Source: Saccostrea echinata | Lineage: Eukaryota | DNA: 64,000 nt | Direction of reading: 5' to 3' | NCBI RefSeq assembly: GCF_033153115.1 | Contig: NW_026889803.1 | Location: 1,674,001-1,738,000 of the forward strand | Program-made: the position numbers and the translations under genes | The notes under the pieces: generated by a model | The model's database searches: none | What the model was told of the DNA's origin: nothing | Seen by the model: the letters and a program-made list of their open reading frames with translations, nothing else | Shown here: one piece after another, positions 49,801 to 63,943 of the stretch | How positions within the stretch are numbered: the first letter of the stretch is position 1 | Layout of the letters: the number at the start of each line of letters is the position of its first letter

Positions 49801-52800
49801 CAAATATCATAAGCCATGCAATTTGTGTATATGTAGGTTTTGTGTGGTGGAAACTGCATCAAAGTGATCTCGGATAGTTCTTTAAGAGATTCTTATTGTT
49901 TTGTAAATAAATGTTATAAATTAAACCAGAATGATACACAATGCCTATTAATAGCATATTATTTCTTGTACTGTTTGTGCAGAGGCTGAGCTTATATACA
50001 AATAAATGATGTTCTGTTTATTAATTCACTGACAAGGATTATAAAAATTTTCAAAAAAATTTAAAATGTAATTTGTAATTTAATTAATTACTTTTGCAAA
50101 GTAATTGTAATTTAATTAATTACATGTCTTAGAAAGCCTGTAATTTAATTGTAATTTAATTGAAGAAAAAGTCAAAGTAATTGTAATTTAATTAATTACT
50201 TTTTAAAGTAATTGACCCCATCCCTGCAAGGGACATAATAATTTGCCACTTCTGCGCAAATCGTGTCACGTTTCCTCGCATGTTCGGTAAAGTAAGGCTG
50301 AGCACTATTAATAGACAAGAGATTTTCCCTTTCTAATTTTATCTTTGTGTTGTAATACTAAAATTGATGATGTATACACAATATTTTTGTCGTCTGCTTT
50401 ATTGTTTGTCGATAAATTTATGTAAAAACAGCATGGGTCGGAAGGGGAAAGAATTAGATACATCCGTCAGAAGTATGGTTGTTAAAGCGTATAAAGAGAA
50501 CAGAAATACATCAGAATTGGAGAGAATATTAGGAATTCCTAGGTCTACAATACGTAGTATTGTGAAAAAGTTTGATGAAATGAGACAGGTAGAAAATCAA
50601 CGAGGAAGGGGAAGGAAGAAAGTGTTTACAGACAGAGATAAAAACAAACTTTCACGCATGGTTAAAGAAAACAGACGAAGAACTTACGAAGACATAACAG
50701 GTATTATAAATGAGGGAAACAATCATAGTTTTTGCACTAGAACTAAAAAAAGAAAAATTCAAGAGCTGGGACACAAAAGGAGGGTTGCCAAAAAAAAAAA
50801 ACGCTATTCGCGAGGCCAACAAAAAAGCTCGCTGCAAGTGGTGCAAGGAGAGAAGAAATTGGACTGTTGATTGTGAATGGAATAAACGGGTGTTTAGTGA
50901 TGAAAGCCAGATAGTAATTGGTAAAAATAAGAAAGTTTATATATGGAGAAAAGACGAGGAAAAGTACAGTGCGCAGTTAGTGTGTCCGCCATCCCGACGA
51001 CATCTGAGTGTCATGATCTGGGGTTGTGAGTGTATAAAAGGAATAGGAACTTTAACTAATGTAGAAGGCAACATAAATGCAAGAAAATATATTGAGATAT
51101 TAGACAACAACCTTTGGCCTGTTTTAGCCAGACATTTTCCAGGTAACCAGTATGTATTTATGGATGACAATGCTCCCATTCATAGAGCAAATTTAGTAAA
51201 AGAATACATCGCCAACAACAACATAATTACAACATCATGGCTTGCCCAGTCTCCTGACCTTAATATTATCGAGAACATTTGGTCAAAAATAAAAAGAACT
51301 CTGGAAACCTGTGCCGAATTCATTAACACAAAAGATCAGCTTATGGCAGAAATTCGGACTGCCTGGGAAAATGTACCAACCTCCTATATTGAAGACCTGT
51401 GTAAGACAATTCCTGGCAGACTAAATGAAGTATTAAATATGAAAGGCAATTTAACAAAGTATTGAGGTAAGATAAGTATTTATTAATTGTTTAACAGATC
51501 CTAAGTATCAAGGTGCGCGATGTAAAAAGTATGGCGGCCATTTTGAAGTGGCGAATAATTATGTCCCTTGACCGTATTTCAATCAAACATATGCACCCAA
51601 AATTCATAGTTTTTATAATTTTTAGATAAAAGAAGCTTCTTAACAGGTTTCTATAATAATGTATCAGTCTGAAATGCTCTTGCAATACTGTATATAGGAA
51701 AATTTTCACCCCCATTTTTATTCTTGCCCCTTTCACCCTCTTTGCAAGAAGGTGAATTTAAAACAGGGCGAATTCAAAGAAAACTGCATTATCCCTTGTC
51801 TATGTGAATTTAGAAATGGGGCAAAATTGTTTGCATTTGTGAAAGGGTGAAAATAATATGGGACAAAAATAACCTGTATACAGTCCATGCCCCTTAAACA
51901 AATAAAAATTGAAGAATGCACACATTGTTCCATCACGTGAGTGTCTCATGTTATGTTTCATTTAGTACATGCATATATTCCCCCCCCCCCCCCCCCCCCC
52001 CCAAGAATTGGCATACTACTGGTAGGCCGGTACATGTGTACCTGTATTAGATTATTCTTGTTATTGTGAAAAAGTAATTAGAATTTTATTTCCTTACCCT
52101 CTCGGTTAGGTTTCCAAGAAATCCTAAATACAGTCTGACAAACTCTATGATAGTAAACACTATGTAGATGGCTATAAGTATGATTGCATACAGTGTTGAT
52201 AATGTGGAGTACTGTAATAAAGAAAATAATAAATACAAAGTTTAAAATGATAACATTTGGTAAATGATCAACACTAAATAAAAATGGAGCAATTTATAAC
52301 TTTTTTTACTTACTTTTACTTCAAAAATGACAAGGGTGGCCACCAGCCAGAAGGGAGAGAAGAAAGCATTAAAATACAGTGCCATCTGAAGGGGCAGATT
52401 TGTGACATATTCACTACCTGAAAATTAGACATAAGGCTATCAGTATAATCACATTTATAAATCTCAAAATATGTACATTTGAAACAGTAATTAATATCCC
52501 CCACACCTGGCCCCTATAAAATGACCCAGTCCACAGTACTGGAAATTGTCTTATCCCCCAATTACTACGTACTAGGGCACAAACATCTGAATGAACTCTG
52601 TTTGTGGTTTAGTACATGTATGTAGTAATTAGAGCCAAACAAACAGCTTATTTTAATCAGATTGAATGTATTAATAGTGAGTGTAGCAAGCTCTAGAGAC
52701 TAAGAGGAAATTTTAACTGAAATCTGTTCATTTGACAAGCAAATTTTCATGTGAAATCTTCCCAAAATTCTTCCACAACCACAAATAGGCACAATTCTAT

Positions 52801-56797: not shown

Positions 56798-58076
56798 GTG
56801 AATATCAATGGAATATTATTGATGTACAATTGATAAATTTATATCGTAAACAATGTTTGGAAACTGGGGATTTTGTTTTCTGTTTGTTTGTGTTTTTTAT
56901 TTAATTTTTTTTCTTTGTATTAATGGTTTGAACATATTTTATTGTATAAATAATATACAAATGGTTTGAACACAAGTTCTAACAACTTACGAGGTTCTCA
57001 CCATAAATGTCTACAACTGTCAAGATCTATATACATTAATTACATGATAAATATATAACTAACTAGAGTTTTAGTGTAAGGCTGTAATAATTAATTAAAT
57101 CTGCCAGAATCTCTTAAAAATTTTTGTTCAGATTGAAAAATATATTTATTGATTTCAACATTTTGTGACTCATCTCCCCACAGAAGTAGGTGACAATCAA
57201 TAATATTCAATTTAGTGTTTGGTTTAATAAGACACAGTAGGTTTCTAAATAGTTCCTCTCTAGCATGTTGATATTTATTACATACAAAGAAGAAATGATC
57301 GATATATGGGTCTTCTGGTGTACCACATGACTAATTTATAGGACTCTCAATAATGTTTCTTTTATAAAGATCATAATTTAATTGTATTTATTTAATTAAA
57401 TAAATCTTGAAAAGGATAGAATGCAAGTTATTTAAACTTAAAAGATCCTTTCCTCATTATACAAGCAGTGTATAAAATATGATTGTCATAACAGTTATAT
57501 CATACAAGCAATATATATTAATTTGAACAAGAAGATTGCATGTTTATCAACTTCATGCAGATGGATCAAGTACTTAATGAATTTTTTGAGAATTTGGAAA
57601 TTTATCACAGTTTCAATCACCTTAAGTAATAAAATAAAATTGTCTCTCATATGGTGTGTACATTAATTTGTTAGACACAATTTGTGCAATAAGTTATTCA
57701 TGTTTCATGCTGGTAGCATTTGAACTTAACATTTTGTAATATTTTGTATTATATGTTGAAATGCGATAAGATGTATGTCTTAAGCAATAAATAAATAATA
57801 ATAATATATTAATGATGTGAATTAATTAATTTAACAAAACAAAGGGAAACACTGTAATATAGTAAATGTCATCTGATTCATGTTTTGGTTTCTTAAAAAT
57901 GCTTTTAACTATATAAATACATATGTTTACATATTGAATTTAGTTTAATCTTATAAATCTTCTGCCATTTGCCTTTATTGTATATGTTGTGCCTCTTTCA
58001 TTAAACATCATTAGTGAACCTGATACAAGTCACATGCAGGCATCTTCAATTACACACAGGGAAGCATCTTGTGTAT

Positions 58077-58380: not shown

Positions 58381-58568
58381 AAAATAACAATGAAGTAAAA
58401 CATAACGTTAGTACATTATTTATTAACTTATTTAAAGTTACATCTGACTTCAAAAGTTAAACTATTACTGTCTATTTCAAACTTTTAAATTGGCTTTTAA
58501 ATCAGCTGAAAGAAATCTTTTACTTGTATTCAGCAAGAGTTCACATGAAATTAGTCCTCTTATGATCC

Positions 58569-60031
58569 TCAGTTTTTTGTCGCTTTGCTTTTAATCTTTT
58601 TCCTGGCATACGACACCTGCTCTGTCACTGCGTCATTTACACTCTTCTCAGAAAATGACCCACCATTCTGATTACACCAGATGGCTATATATTCTGAAAA
58701 AAAGTAGACAATACTAAATTTAGCACATTATTAGAATTGAAATTTTGTTATTTTTAGATATTTCAGGCAAATTAAGTTCTAATTGTACTATTTTGACATT
58801 TCTTAATTTCATCATTGTAATTCTATAATCATCATTGAAGACAAAATGATTAATGTAAGAGATTAGAGAAACAATGTTACTGATGTCTGTACCCTTTAAG
58901 ACGTCCATTTTGGAGTTATCCAAAACAGGTCTCAGGTCCCCTTCTTTGGATTTGATTCCTTGACCCCTGCTAGATGCCAACTCCTCCCAGGAAAATATGG
59001 CCGGTAGAAGTTTGGCCGTCATAGTAAAGGCCATTTTGGTGGGATGGGCCTTTTTGGCGGCATCTTTGGCCTTCCTTAGAGATTCTCTCCTCACTTTCAA
59101 GCTGTGATGAGCCAGGAGTTTTGTCATCTGCAATCAAAGTAAATTGCTTATTTCTGATATAATTATATCTAATGGGAAACATATCAAACTCAGAAAAAGG
59201 GAAACATTTTAAATTTGGCATTTGGGGTAAAAAAAAAAAGAAAAGTTTGACTCACCTGGCTATCAGAATCCTCTGGTGTTGAGGCATGTTTTCTCGGAGA
59301 TCTCCTTGGAGTAGTTGGCAGGGTATTTTGTTGCGAAATCACAGGAGATGTGGTGCTCTGAGGTGACAAGGTCATGTTCTGTACTGATTGTGTGACTGTG
59401 TTTTGAAATGAAAGTGTATTTGTGTCTTGTACTGACTGAGTGACTGCATTTTGAAATGGAAGCACATTTGTGATACTCAATGGATCTGTGTTTGTGTTCT
59501 GTAAAGACTGAATGTGTGTGTACCGTGGTTGAATATTGTGGGTTGTGATAAAGCTCTGAGGAGTTGAGATGACATTGTTATCCTGTAAAGTTGTGAAATG
59601 TTGAAAGTGTGTGTTGCGTGTTGTACTTTGCTTTGTTGGTGTTTTGAGTGTTGGTGTATTAAGTGTTGTCTGTGGTGTTTGCTCTGATATGTAAGTGTCA
59701 TGTGCGGACCATGGGGGTGGCTGTGTGTAGTTTGTGTATGGAGTCCATGTTTGTGTAGTCAAAGTAGGCATCCTGATCTCCTGGTCCAAAGTTTCATATG
59801 ATTTGTCTACCATCTGAACAAATAAGGAAAAACAGAATGTTAGGATAGTCATATTCACACTCTGAATAACAAGATATATATAATGTCTGACAATTGAATA
59901 CACTACCTGGGAGTTCACACAGCTTTCAGACTGTCCAGACTTGAATTGTTTTACAACGGCCTGCATGTAGTCCTGCACACTAGGTTTTAGCAACAATTCA
60001 AAGAGCTGAACTACGTCTGCTGGTGGAACTA
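58569..60031 (-). CDS. BEN-domain protein with a Thr/Gln-rich low-complexity middle region; 5' end not identified
   Basis: Exons 60031-59907, 59813-59256, 59127-58893, 58693-58569 splice in frame (GT-AG). The C-terminus MTAKLLPAIFSWEELASSRGQG..RPVLDNSKMDVLKEYIAIW..SVNDAVTEQVSYARKK fits the BEN pattern (LL..FS.EEL...G...LD......R-K). TPRRSPRK lies before the domain, and AATAAA is on the minus strand near 58420. Confidence 0.65.
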
Positions 60032-60247
60032 CTGAAGAGAATAAAAAACAGTGATATACTAATTAGCATAGTAATTATCAATAGTGTAAAGAGCATTATT
60101 ACATGAATCATTTCACATTGTTATGTCGTGTTTTCACTGTAAAAAATAAATAAATAAATAAAATAAACACGAAAGATAAATTTCACCTTTCGGTGGCTGG
60201 TATAAAAGGACATGGTATGAATATTTTTTAAATTTAATTCGTGGAAC

Positions 60248-60281
60248 CAGGGAGCTATATACATAGTATTATAGGTCCCTA
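60248..60281. mobile_element. 34-bp palindromic insert (CAGGGACCTAT family) with perfect 7-bp TSD; probable P-superfamily footprint
   Basis: gtggaac|cagggagctatatacatagtattataggtcccta|gtggaac. Confidence 0.7.
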
Positions 60282-60303
60282 GTGGAACAGGCACATGTTT
60301 CTG

Positions 60304-60306
<3 letters not shown>

Positions 60307-60376
<70 letters not shown>
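60307..60376. repeat. (TA)n microsatellite
   Basis: Continuous TA run adjoining the inverted repeat. Confidence 0.95.
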
Positions 60377-60379
<3 letters not shown>

Positions 60380-60412
60380 CACTAAAAATGACCAACGACA
60401 CGAACAATAATA

Positions 60413-60454
60413 ATTGTCAAATTTTCGGGACAACCTGTCCCTTCCTCAGGACAA
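60413..60454 (-). ncRNA. Minimal type-I hammerhead ribozyme motif (minus-strand copy)
   Basis: Reverse complement reads AUUGUC-CUGAGGA-A-GGGACA-GGU-UGUCCC-GAAA-AUUU-GACAAU. Confidence 0.7.
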
Positions 60455-61118
60455 TGAAAAAAGTTAAGAAGTCATAAAAACAAAGGAAATAGAGAAGCAA
60501 AAACAACTAGCACTACTACTAAACTACCAAACACTAAATATTTACAATGTTACATGTTTAATTTTGAGTTTATAAACAGTTGTGAACAAAGAAATCCGGA
60601 GCGCTATGAATTGCGTCCGGTCTATCGGGTGTAGTCTGGTGAAGTGTGATTTACATAATTGAACGAATTAAGATATTAGTATTAGTAATCCTGGAACAAC
60701 CTACCCAAATATTTACAGCTCACATTTTTGTTTATTTCTTTTTTCCGATTTCCAAATTTAAAATATATATCCAAATTCATATTTCTAAATTGTCCTTCCA
60801 TATTATCTTTCTTTAATTTCTGTTTATTATGTAGAGTTACGCTATTTTGATAGAATAAGACAATGTACGATTTACTGTTGGCCTTAATTAATTAGCGATA
60901 ATTAATTCGTTCAATTATGTAAATCACACTTCACCAGACTACACCCGATAGACCGGACGCAATTCATAGCGCTCCGGATTTCTTTGTTCACAACTGTTTA
61001 TAAACTCAAAATTAAACATGTAACATTGTAAATATTTAGTGTTTGGTAGTTTAGTAGTAGTGCTAGTTGTTTTTGCTTCTCTATTTCCTTTGTTTTTATG
61101 ACTTCTTAACTTTTTTCT

Positions 61119-61159
61119 TTGTCCTGAGGAAGGGACAGGTTGTCCCGAAAATTTGACAA
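61119..61159 (+). ncRNA. Minimal type-I hammerhead ribozyme motif (plus-strand copy)
   Basis: Stem I UUGUC/GACAA, core CUGAGGA at 61124-61130, stem II GGGACA/UGUCCC, GAAA at 61147-61150, and a self-complementary AAUU in place of stem III. Confidence 0.7.
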
Positions 61160-61259
61160 TTATTATTGTTCGTGTCGTTGGTCATTTTTAGTGCTTTATA
61201 TAAATTTCCATCCGTGACCTTGTATCTACTTAGTAGATCCGACACTTAGGATATACAGT

Positions 61260-61439: not shown

Positions 61440-62168
61440 TATTTATAGCTATATTATTTATTTTTTATTATACTATATGTTAAAAAATTATTACAGAAAC
61501 AAGTGCGAGTGATTCGTGGCCACGAATTTAAAATTCATCATGTTCATCATGTTCATGGTCATGAAATAAAAATTTGCGGCAACGAATTAAAATTTCTGGC
61601 CACGAATTATATTTGTAGTACTTAAAATATTGTAGATTATTCAAGTTCCCTTGATGTATGCACATCTAATACTACAGAAGTAAAATTCACTTTATGAACA
61701 GAATAGAATTTTATGTGTTTGATTTTATTACTATTGATGTTATAAACTGCTAAATTTATTGCAGCAAAGATATTTGGGGTGGGGGTCAATTTTCAATTTG
61801 TGTGAACATCTGTCGGAAAAGCGGGGGTGGGGGGCTCGTGAATAGATATATAAAAATGGGCATGACTGATTCATTTTTCTGCTTTATCCTACGATTAGTG
61901 ACTTTCAGAAGTTTTTCTGCATTTTAACATTATTAATTAAGCCGAATATTCTTTCAAACATTTCCATATTACCTGATTAAATAAACTCAAATCTAAGGCT
62001 AGAAAGTTTTGATGAGTTCAGTTTATCAAATAAATCAGTCTGATTTATTATATTAAGTTGCAAAACCCTTTTCAACTAATCTGAATTAGTCCACGTTTCG
62101 GGAGTGGGAAACGACGCACTAATGTTGGAACTAATGCATCAGTTTTATTTACAAATGAACCTTCTCTC

Positions 62169-62430
62169 CATTGGCGGATTTAGAGATTAATAAATGGGGG
62201 TGGATGTGGGCAACATTTGGAAAAAATATAATTTTGGGGGGTCAGATATTGCTTTTATTATACAAAACTGATCTAAAATAATAATAATAAATTAAAGGGG
62301 GGTTGGAAGGGGGCTTTGCTGGCCCCTGGGCTCACCAGAGCTTTGCCCTGGACCCATTTGGGTCCTTAAGGCGGCCCCAGGCTCCCGAACTCCCCCCCCC
62401 CCTTTTTAAGAAATCCTGGATCTGCCACTG
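62169..62430. mobile_element. GC-rich MITE (CA(G/T)TGGC.GAT termini), apparent 5-bp TSD CTCTC
   Basis: ctctc|cattggcggattta ... ctggatctgccactg|ctctc. Confidence 0.6.
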
Positions 62431-62779: not shown

Positions 62780-63943
62780 ATGGCCGACGTGGACTCTCAA
62801 GACGCCGCATCAGTCCCAGCTTTAGCGGTTACAGCTGCTGTTGGTGCAGTAATTGTCTTAATTATACTTGTGTGCAGTGTAGGAAGGGAAAACAAACCAA
62901 AATCTGAAAGTGGTGAGAAAGTTTACTGAACAAACAAGAGATTTCTAATTTTCTAGGTGAAAACGAAAGATTGCACCATCACTCAGGGTCCTTAGACGAT
63001 CTGAGCAAAAATTAGTGTATGGTTTAAGGTGGGGTGGGGGATTCCTAATGAGCCTCGGTGACTCGTTTCAAACTCTCAAAACTTTTCTTATTTTAAAAAA
63101 ATCCATCAAAAAGAATTCCCAGTGGAAAGGCAGAATGTTGTTTTTTAAATTATTGTCATAAATAAATCAATTACCAATTACCTAACTTCATTAAAACTTA
63201 AAAAAAAAATCAAACTTCTGAGAATTAGGTCCCTGTCATTATGACCATATAACCCTACATCATTTTTTTCCAAATCACTGGTGAAAATGGATCCCATCTC
63301 CTGAGACAGACAGTCAACAGTCATACAAATATCGTGAGGGTGACCAGAAGCAGAAATATTTTAAATTGTTACCCTGTGATTGGGTGCAAGGGATGACAAG
63401 TGCATAAAATTCAAGGCAATGAACAAAAAAGGGCATGGAGAAAATGGTGTAGGACTAATGATGGTGACCTAATTCTCAATCGTTTGAATATTTTTTTTTT
63501 TTTTTTTGCAAGTTTTCATAAAGATGTGGTTGATGAAAATCAATGTTAGGAATTTTTATAATTTTTTTTGATGAAATTTAGAACAAGACTTATAAGCTGC
63601 AATGTATATAAATATGTAATATGACTTTTATATTGTGCAGTCACAATAAGAAAAAGGAAATGAGATGAAGAAATATTTTGATGTTTAACTAATTTATTTG
63701 TAATATCCGAGACAGCAAATTTTTGTGTGTTTTCAGAACAAAATGAAAATGTTGAGAAAACCCAGAAAAATGAAAAGACAGAAAAACATGCAAAGAAAGG
63801 AAAAGCACAGAAAACAGTGAAGAGGTCACACAGTGTTCACTTTTCTCATCCATGGCTATCATGTAACCTGAAGGGACACAGTGGACAAGTTTTAGCCCTG
63901 GACTTCAGTCCTAATGGCAAATACCTCATTACAGCTAGTGATG
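62780..63943 (+). CDS. TBL2: Transducin beta-like protein 2 (N-terminal TM anchor plus WD40); first two exons, continues beyond the window
   Basis: Exons 62780-62912 (TM segment ALAVTAAVGAVIVLIILVCSV) and 63737-63943 (basic linker, then FSHPWLSCNLKGHSGQVLALDFSPNGKYLITASD) match the TBL2 pattern FTH..L...LKSHSG.I..MDFSSNGKYLAT. Confidence 0.85.

What the first reader, a model, noticed from the sequence alone, without database searches (positions are those of the whole stretch)
60307..61259. 301-bp inverted repeat with twin minimal hammerhead ribozymes at a (TA)n site
Seen: nearly identical inverted arms, each with stem I, CUGAGGA, an extra A, a 6-bp stem II, GAAA and a palindromic AAUU replacing stem III, giving a predicted UUU cleavage triplet. 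Known: Penelope-like elements carry minimal type-I hammerheads in their pLTRs that are thought to cleave as dimers, often leave inverted truncated pLTRs, and some clades target microsatellites. Inference: a very recent PLE insertion. Either strand's transcript has one sense ribozyme plus its antisense copy, so it could self-cleave or be locked in a 300-bp dsRNA that feeds siRNA or editing pathways, probably within the BEN gene's transcription unit.
Basis: partly seen in the sequence, partly recalled or inferred. Interest (0 to 1): 0.7.

Follow-up and report, generated by a model that had tools for sequence, protein, structure and literature searches.

The report
Head-to-head Penelope stub with hammerheads
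This mirror-image repeat is one short, very young insertion of an abundant Penelope-like jumping gene in a TA microsatellite, an already described layout, and the ends of its many sister copies pile up at the predicted cut site of its tiny hammerhead ribozyme, which likely records that ribozyme cutting the element's RNA in living cells.

Summary
The 301-bp inverted repeat and both minimal hammerhead motifs are real. They are the 3' ends of two 5'-truncated copies of one Penelope-like element (PLE), joined head to head in (TA)n; the 'spacer' is also element. Full-length relatives in this genome carry a 921-aa RT + C-terminal GIY-YIG ORF with a Neptune/Nematis-type linker; a 23-mer from the arm has 657 exact matches, and the long arm is 100% identical over 581 nt to an ORF-bearing copy. 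This layout is textbook PLE, so the locus itself is ordinary. The family is more informative: 23 of 24 head-to-head pairs combine one short end with one 83-nt-tailed end, and 5' truncation points are about sevenfold enriched at the predicted hammerhead cut (two overlapping samples of 100 copies, p about 1e-5), with a second, sharper hotspot at an initiator-like site 227-229 nt upstream. Best reading: two-strand priming on one source RNA, part of which was ribozyme-cut in vivo. Cleavage is inferred, not shown. The twin ribozymes are antiparallel and cannot form the cis dimer; location inside the BEN gene is unproven. This scan noted the same footprint before in other genomes (two notes agree on the cut-site pile-up, two found none).

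The parts
60306..60376 (.). (TA)35 run, left half of the microsatellite target; fused to the short (A-type) 3' end of the left arm
   Evidence: 90 of 97 scored 3' ends of sister copies run into TA repeats
60377..60671 (-). Left arm: 5'-truncated PLE 3' end read on the minus strand, from -253 relative to the predicted cut to end site A (+42); lacks the 83-nt tail
60414..60454 (-). Minimal type-I hammerhead motif, left arm (identical to the right one over these 41 nt)
60672..60678 (.). Head-to-head junction: 3-7 filler bases between the two truncated 5' ends
   Evidence: gap 3 by BLAST; exact family match starts at 60679
60675..61259 (+). Right arm: longer 5'-truncated PLE 3' end starting at -480 (includes the 230-nt 'spacer'), through site A and into the tail; runs into the N stretch. 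Sister copies end at site B (+125) followed by (TA)n
   Evidence: 60679-61259 is 100% identical to L002/L031 and L003
60926..60929 (+). Hotspot of 5' truncation in sister copies (-229 to -226), in an initiator-like TCACAC; inferred capped transcription start of the pLTR promoter (mirror position about 60644-60647 on the minus strand)
   Evidence: promoter activity not tested
61119..61159 (+). Minimal type-I hammerhead motif, right arm; predicted cut between 61154 and 61155 (U16.1-U17)
   Evidence: 520 exact genome matches of the 34-nt core
61190..61202 (+). End site A: motif followed by a short internal TA run; tail-less arms stop here and fuse with the target (TA)n
61203..61259 (+). Visible part of the 83-nt tail between end sites A and B, present on one arm only
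   Evidence: 411 exact genome matches of a tail 20-mer

Best explanation
The locus is a non-coding, very young insertion of an abundant endonuclease-bearing Penelope-like retrotransposon, made of two truncated 3' ends joined head to head in a TA microsatellite, likely produced when both nicked target strands primed reverse transcription of the same source RNA at two start sites 83 nt apart. Shown: family membership, ORF in sister copies, TA targets, one short plus one tailed end per pair, near-identical arms, and pile-ups of 5' ends at two fixed positions. Inferred: (1) transcription starts about 228 nt upstream of the hammerhead in the upstream pLTR; (2) the GIY-YIG domain nicks both strands of (TA)n and the 3' ends pair with the short UA runs after sites A and B; (3) two cDNAs grow towards each other and are joined through microhomology or filler; (4) a minority of template RNAs had been cut by the hammerhead, probably as a dimer of the two pLTR copies or with protein help, so cDNAs ran off at the cut; most templates were uncut. 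In this particular copy both arms read through the ribozyme, which is a passenger with no likely local function.
For: Family: 40 best-scored genome places 99-100% identical to the arm; 657 exact 23-mer matches, 0 for the reversed control; ORF 921 aa with RVT_1 E=1e-9 and GIY-YIG E=4e-9, unit length 3780 nt. Pairing: among the first 100 listed matches 24 head-to-head pairs, 0 tail-to-tail; 23 of 24 pairs are one A end plus one B end (read, 23 of them re-typed; p=9e-7 if independent); 14 of 15 pairs with >=900 nt overlap are >=99.4% identical between arms; in the 22 unselected A/B pairs the A arm is longer in 10, the B arm in 10, about equal in 2, so neither arm is simply a copy of the other. 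Cut-site pile-up: 8 breakpoints in 969 copy-nt at +4..-6 versus 55 in 48,002 upstream (p=2e-5); among 100 tail-anchored copies the rate rises 0.15, 0.32, 0.39, 0.66 to about 1.2 %/nt at +5..-6 and falls to 0.14 just upstream (10 events after removing one double count, 1.4 expected, p=3e-6), which is not early abortion; whole-genome mismatch patterns gave 40 rows at the cut versus 4 just upstream; an equally AT-rich window at -50..-39 is not enriched; all 18 scored partners end in TA, not in an older copy. Start site: 28 rows in a 4-nt window; 9 of 17 junctions at -229/-227 are preceded by G versus 11 of 59 elsewhere (p=0.008; 7 of 15, p=0.03, without the two discovery rows), the cap signature described for L1 (PMC9341517, passages).
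Against: No cleavage, cap or RNA end was observed: only contigs were available. The pile-up is broad, not one base: of 39 distinct rows 5 lie at +1, 6 at +2, 8 at +5 and 8 at -6/-7, and windows downstream are also raised (24 rows at +5..+16, 12 at +17..+28). Some rows are internal deletions, ATT-unit indels or both arms of one locus, and at least 1 of the 8 events is an internal deletion. Bin limits were set, and the two 100-copy samples overlap. Because +1 is a G, a capped start at +2 would mimic a +1 end. U17 is a poor cleavage triplet (own knowledge); in a fold from -228 stem I has pairing probability 0.01. No sign of selection on the core within the family. The first G count was inflated by a subfamily allele with G at -229 (11 of 50 copies) and had to be redone. 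Frangieh 2024 found no RNA reads at the cut of a lizard PLE.
Confidence: 0.9

Rival explanations
1. Same element, but the pile-up of 5' ends near +1 comes from reverse-transcriptase stalling or fold-back at RNA/cDNA structure (stem II, the AAAUUU palindrome, the GACAAU-loop-AUUGUU hairpin at +1..+16), not from ribozyme cleavage; the hammerhead is silent in vivo.
For: 8 of 39 rows extend to -6/-7, several as fold-backs across the palindrome; the +1..+16 hairpin forms in the folds; breakpoints also cluster loosely at other hairpins (-181..-203, -246..-267); most copies read through the motif; two earlier scan notes on other genomes saw no pile-up.
Against: Stalling at the strong stem II predicts ends near -9, where the rate is low (0.05-0.14 %/nt at -7..-50); many junctions at -3..+5 join to TA runs or unrelated DNA with no fold-back; the rate drops about ninefold exactly across the predicted cut.
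Confidence: 0.3
2. The +1 pile-up marks a second transcription start site rather than a ribozyme cut.
For: PLE pLTRs hold internal promoters (PMC2377424, abstract); +1 is a G, so a cap-derived G on a +2 start cannot be told from a +1 end.
Against: Only 1 of 5 distinct +1 junctions is preceded by G and none of the 6 at +2 by definition; the peak is a ramp from +45 to +1, unlike the sharp -229/-227 peak; +2 is preceded by a purine; coincidence with the scissile bond would be chance.
Confidence: 0.12
3. The mirror pair arises by self-priming or snap-back (one cDNA or an antisense RNA folding back on itself), as hypothesised for rotifer PLEs, not by two primed cDNAs.
For: PMC3846280 (passages) proposes self-priming from palindromic junctions; some pairs here turn almost symmetrically (L111, L146, L170) and arms are near-identical.
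Against: Either arm can be longer by kilobases (10 versus 10), and when the tail-less arm is the longer one neither arm contains the other; 23 of 24 pairs have different 3' ends.
Confidence: 0.15
4. The locus is a functional host regulatory RNA element (dsRNA or ribozyme switch) in the BEN-like gene, or at least alters its neighbours.
For: A read-through transcript would form a 300-bp duplex; a minus-strand exon at 59909-60031 has an acceptor-like boundary and candidate donors lie beyond the insertion at 62336 and 62718; both arms keep the inferred start site, pointing outward at two divergent genes.
Against: The arm is 100% identical to other mobile copies, so it is too young for domestication; hundreds of equivalent insertions exist; no RNA contig bridges it.
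Confidence: 0.07
5. Assembly or library fold-back artefact.
For: No long reads were checked; no second haplotype of the locus was found.
Against: Mid-contig position, unequal arms with different ends, filler at the junction, and the same rule at dozens of loci.
Confidence: 0.02

Closest known systems
Canonical C-terminal EN+ Penelope-like elements, Neptune/Nematis type (Craig et al. 2021, PMC8557442; passages and section 15 read)
   Same: Single ORF with RT then GIY-YIG, DKG, CCHH and CX2-5CxxC linker; pLTR with hammerhead; adjacent inverted 5'-truncated copy; tail at one end only; microsatellite targeting.
   Different: Tail is 83 nt rather than 30-40 nt and is bounded by two similar motifs, each followed by a short TA run that matches the target; the window copy has no ORF. 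Neptune versus Nematis was not resolved.
Minimal hammerheads (min-HHR) of metazoan PLEs (Cervera and De la Pena 2014, PMC4209133; parts 1-2 of 4 read)
   Same: Short helix I, long helix II, extra base between 9 and 10.1, G10.1-C11.1, palindromic 15.2-16.2, no helix III; that paper also reports dual motifs 100-700 bp apart on opposite strands.
   Different: U at position 17 in 121 of 123 sampled copies. The paper states there is no in vivo evidence; here genomic 5' ends pile up at the predicted cut.
Poseidon PLE of Anolis carolinensis, PAc (Frangieh et al. 2024, PMC11167929; parts 1-2 of 4 read)
   Same: Both target strands cut and extended in vitro; two internal RT start sites that delimit the tail; uncut RNA is the main template; protein-assisted hammerhead.
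   Different: PAc primes without homology to the target and lacks the linker Zn finger; its authors found no RNA reads at the cut. Here the two start sites abut TA runs like the target, and each head-to-head pair uses one of each.
Animal non-LTR retrozymes (10.64898/2026.07.22.740005, part 1 of 5 read; PMC7229834, listing only)
   Same: Type-I hammerhead in a dispersed repeat, related to PLE pLTRs.
   Different: This family is autonomous (intact ORF in sister copies) and the locus is not a tandem array of a non-coding monomer.

Membership tests
EN+ Penelope-like element (family level) | Single ORF with RT and C-terminal GIY-YIG endonuclease | tested here: met
   921 aa in L033; RVT_1 456-596, GIY-YIG 819-903. 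The window copy itself lacks the ORF.
EN+ Penelope-like element (family level) | CCHH motif with two Cys inside GIY-YIG; DKG motif | tested here: met
   C826, C829, H847, H863; DKG at 323
EN+ Penelope-like element (family level) | Partial-tandem pLTR upstream of the ORF, carrying a hammerhead | tested here: met
   Upstream repeat of the 3' end in L043, L045-L047, L053, L055 and others
EN+ Penelope-like element (family level) | Adjacent inverted 5'-truncated copy and a tail at one end only | tested here: met
   24 head-to-head pairs in 100 matches, 23 with one tailed end; tail is 83 nt, longer than the usual 30-40
EN+ Penelope-like element (family level) | Target-site duplication | not testable with these tools
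   Both flanks are (TA)n; no empty allele found
Neptune or Nematis clade | CX2-5CxxC linker between RT and EN | tested here: met
   C781-X4-C786-X2-C789
Neptune or Nematis clade | Placement in the RT phylogeny | not tested
   No named reference proteins were fetched; no tree built
Naiad/Chlamys | N-terminal GIY-YIG | tested here: not met
   GIY-YIG is C-terminal
Hydra clade | No CCHH, DKT, CxCX5C linker | tested here: not met
   CCHH and DKG present
Penelope/Poseidon clade | Linker Zn finger absent | tested here: not met
   Linker present
Minimal type-I hammerhead | CUGANGA and GAAA boxes, U16.1, helix I and II, extra base before G10.1-C11.1, palindromic 15.2-16.2 | tested here: met
   the sixth pair of stem II is broken in about half of the copies
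Minimal type-I hammerhead | Covariation or selection on the core | tested here: inconclusive
   123 sampled copies too alike; core no better conserved than the flank. In two DNA runs of other coded organisms the listed majority changes inside the motif fall only in loop 2 / its closing base (table cut)
Minimal type-I hammerhead | Self-cleavage (as dimer or with protein) | not testable with these tools
   Indirect only: pile-up of 5' ends at the predicted cut
Non-LTR retrozyme | Non-coding 170-400 nt monomer in tandem arrays, no own ORF | tested here: not met
   Arm continues into an RT-EN ORF in sister copies; unit 3780 nt

The most novel reading that the evidence does not exclude
This young family is a genomic fossil record of the PLE RNA life cycle: insertions map a capped start at -229/-227, in vivo self-cleavage of a U17 minimal hammerhead at +1, and obligate use of two different TA-pairing start sites by the two nicked target strands on one source RNA, which would explain both the inverted copy and the one-sided tail of PLEs and answer whether PLE hammerheads cut in cells.
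Probability: 0.5. Interest if true: 0.65.

Novelty: new member of a known kind. Interest (0 to 1): 0.45.

Why it matters
The locus itself is an ordinary PLE stub. The family matters because two open points in print become testable with one active element: whether metazoan PLE minimal hammerheads cut in vivo (PMC4209133 notes no in vivo evidence; PMC11167929 found no reads at the cut; PMC8557442 calls the function unclear) and how the inverted copy and the one-sided tail arise. Intact ORFs, a simple (TA)n target, two defined priming sites and two predicted RNA 5' ends give exact predictions for RACE and for in vitro reconstitution.

Tried and rejected
Rfam scan: no hammerhead family at E<=10; the 8 weak matches are unrelated. 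PDB sequence search with the ORF: 0 matches at E<=0.01. Sequencing runs: no RNA holder on record, contigs only; contigs of guessed-RNA runs cover exons of both neighbours and the element, but none bridges the insertion or shows an RNA end. Empty allele: no second copy of the flank in the assembly. Folding z-scores of the ribozyme and tail were not significant (-0.2 to -1.6); cofolding two motifs did not give the AAUU dimer as the minimum. A first junction analysis with several reference copies was misregistered for the -229 site (upper half) and was redone; the apparent 6 of 7 G at -228 is explained by a subfamily allele. Bacterial promoter scan is irrelevant here and found nothing. Rejected: host-derived spacer; retrozyme; RT-synthesised TA tracts as the only source of the flanks (solo truncated copies have TA on the 5' side too); nested insertion into older copies as the cause of the +1 junctions. 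Lunse et al. 2017 on PLE hammerhead dimers was not held and is known only as a citation in PMC6765202. Searches for a published cut-site pile-up or twin-priming model for PLEs listed none, but most subscription papers are not held, and supplements of PMC11167929 (Fig. S2) and PMC8557442 were not read and may bear on both points.

Full report
Numbering. +1 is window base 61155, the first base after the predicted hammerhead cut; -1 is 61154.

1. Observation. The inverted repeat is real: arms 60368-60671 and 60902-61205, 99% complementary, 230 nt apart, with one difference outside the TA run. Rfam has no match to it. The 41-nt motif alone folds into stems I and II (-12.6 kcal/mol, z -1.6). The window lies well inside a 69.7-Mb contig of a 923-Mb genome.

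2. What it is. The arm is a high-copy repeat: the 40 best-scored of 1627 candidate places are 99-100% identical; exact matches number 657 for a 23-mer after the cut, 520 for the 34-nt ribozyme core and 411 for a tail 20-mer, with 0 for each reversed control. Upstream of the arm, sister copies continue through the window's 'spacer' into an ORF. [quoted passage not shown] The unit is 3780 nt, ATG at +473, stop 542 nt before the next cut. The window's right arm (from -480) is 100% identical over 581 nt to two other loci, one of which (L031) has an open 936-codon frame. The left arm is a shorter inverted copy (from -253). So the locus is two truncated 3' ends joined head to head in (TA)n, very young and non-coding. 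Inverted truncated copies, one-sided tails, microsatellite targets and oppositely oriented minimal hammerheads 100-700 bp apart are all described (PMC8557442 passages; PMC4209133 parts 1-2; PMC3846280 passages).

3. The pairing rule. I fetched all of the first 100 listed matches (contigs C1-C7). They hold 24 head-to-head pairs within 6 kb, 0 tail-to-tail and 5 direct. 3' ends fall in two classes: 55 stop at site A (+42), 41 at site B (+125, 83 nt further), 4 are other; 90 of 97 scored ends run into TA repeats. Both sites are a similar motif followed by a short TA-like run in the tandem element. 23 of 24 pairs are A plus B (hand-read; one pair, L114, has a 4.4-kb gap and may not be one event; p=9e-7 under independence). 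Arms of a pair are usually closer to each other than to a third copy (14 of 15 long overlaps >=99.4%) and either arm can be the longer (10 versus 10). The window follows the rule. This fits the in vitro result for the lizard element PAc, which cuts and extends both strands and starts at two sites that delimit the tail (PMC11167929, parts 1-2), and suggests two separately primed cDNAs from one source, later joined. That step is inferred.

4. Do the 5' ends record the ribozyme cut? In the 100-copy sample 8 breakpoints lie at +4..-6 (0.83 %/nt) against 55 over -7..-880 (0.115 %/nt; p=2e-5); at least one of the 8 is an internal deletion. To exclude early abortion I took the first 100 matches of a tail anchor (56 newly fetched, 44 already held): rates were 0.15 (+85..+46), 0.32, 0.39, 0.66, 1.3 (+5..-6; 11 rows, one a double count), then 0.14, 0.16, 0.17, 0.22 %/nt upstream (p=3e-6 with 10 events). 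The two samples overlap. Whole-genome patterns that require mismatch upstream gave 40 rows at the cut, 4 just upstream, 24 at +5..+16, 12 at +17..+28 and 8 near -195 (my estimated detection rates differ, 0.25-0.47). Among 39 distinct rows at the cut the first matching base was -7 (2), -6 (6), -4 (1), -3 (2), -2 (4), -1 (1), +1 (5), +2 (6), +3 (1), +4 (3), +5 (8); some are indels or two arms of one locus. The shape is a ramp that ends at the cut, as expected if some templates had their 5' end there and joining loses a few bases. Most copies read through the motif, so cleavage would be partial. Partners of 18 such arms end in TA, so they are not insertions into older copies. Among 20 copies with upstream pLTR sequence, 4 start within about -2..+9 (hand-read).

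5. A second hotspot. Breakpoints also cluster at -229..-225; a whole-genome pattern gave 28 rows in a 4-nt window. The site is initiator-like (a TCACT initiator-like motif is noted in rotifer pLTRs, PMC3846280). After dropping 4 rows that are internal deletions or duplications and allowing for a subfamily allele with G at -229, 9 of 17 junctions at -229/-227 are preceded by G against 11 of 59 elsewhere (p=0.008; 7 of 15, p=0.03, without two discovery rows). An untemplated G is associated with copying of a cap (PMC9341517, passages). At +1 only 1 of 5 is preceded by G, but +1 is itself a G, so this test cannot exclude a capped start at +2. I read -229/-227 as the likely pLTR start (PLE promoters lie in the upstream pLTR: PMC2377424 abstract and section 16; PMC6765202 passages), which would put two sense hammerheads on a full transcript and allow the dimer.

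6. Local consequences. A transcript across the whole locus, on either strand, folds the ribozyme into the long duplex; the two motifs are antiparallel and cannot be the dimer. Both arms keep the inferred start site and point outward, towards a minus-strand spliced gene with a weak BEN match and a plus-strand WD40 gene starting near 62781. Whether the insertion is in the first intron of the BEN-like gene is open: candidate donors lie beyond it, but no contig bridges it.

7. Comparison and novelty. Membership in EN+ PLEs is met on every testable feature; Naiad, Hydra, Penelope/Poseidon and retrozyme tests fail; Neptune versus Nematis was not tested. My literature searches listed no report of truncation pile-up at a PLE hammerhead cut or of an A-plus-B pairing rule, within the limits of the library. 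The scan's own notes, read after my analyses, report the A-plus-B footprint in several other genomes; two report inner ends at the start site and cut site, two found no pile-up. These are unchecked and are not counted as support.

8. Verdict. Ordinary locus, new member of a known kind (confidence 0.9 for identity). The twin-priming reading is about 0.75 and in vivo ribozyme cleavage about 0.55. Interest 0.45, because the family makes a stated open question directly testable.

Noticed in passing
window 62781-63942 (+): Spliced gene with an N-terminal hydrophobic segment and WD40 repeat (intron 62912-63736 in two contigs; WD40 E=3e-7); resembles TBL2 by recall only. Diverges from the BEN-like gene, with the insertion between or within their 5' regions.
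   Followed up: partly
window 58559-60031 (-): Spliced gene with Thr/Gln-rich exon and weak BEN match; introns 58694-58893, 59128-59256, 59814-59907 seen in contigs; first exon not found.
   Followed up: partly
window 50337-51465 (+): Two overlapping frames that look like a Tc1/mariner transposase split by a frameshift (name from recall).
   Followed up: no
window 57091-57330 (-): Short frame resembling the C-terminal end of a LINE-type ORF (recall only).
   Followed up: no
window 60132-60300 and 61440-61600: Both flanks of the TA run are themselves repeated in DNA runs and share short inverted matches; the microsatellite may sit inside an older non-autonomous repeat.
   Followed up: no
G000:C12:2086727 and 2086810 (L218/L219): Two tail anchors 83 nt apart on one strand, i.e. 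a likely tandem duplication of exactly the A-to-B tail.
   Followed up: no
L031, L038, L170: Multi-kilobase near-perfect palindromes of the element (up to 3.3 kb at 99.9%), some with open ORFs on both strands; possible sources of long dsRNA or of instability.
   Followed up: no
L036:oriented 3967 (G000:C28, about 9.6088 Mb): A diverged copy of the ribozyme has C at position 17 and a non-palindromic core; one copy only.
   Followed up: no
L056 (G000:C30, about 1.5497 Mb): A CUGAUGA match inside the ORF region of a diverged copy; probably coding coincidence.
   Followed up: no
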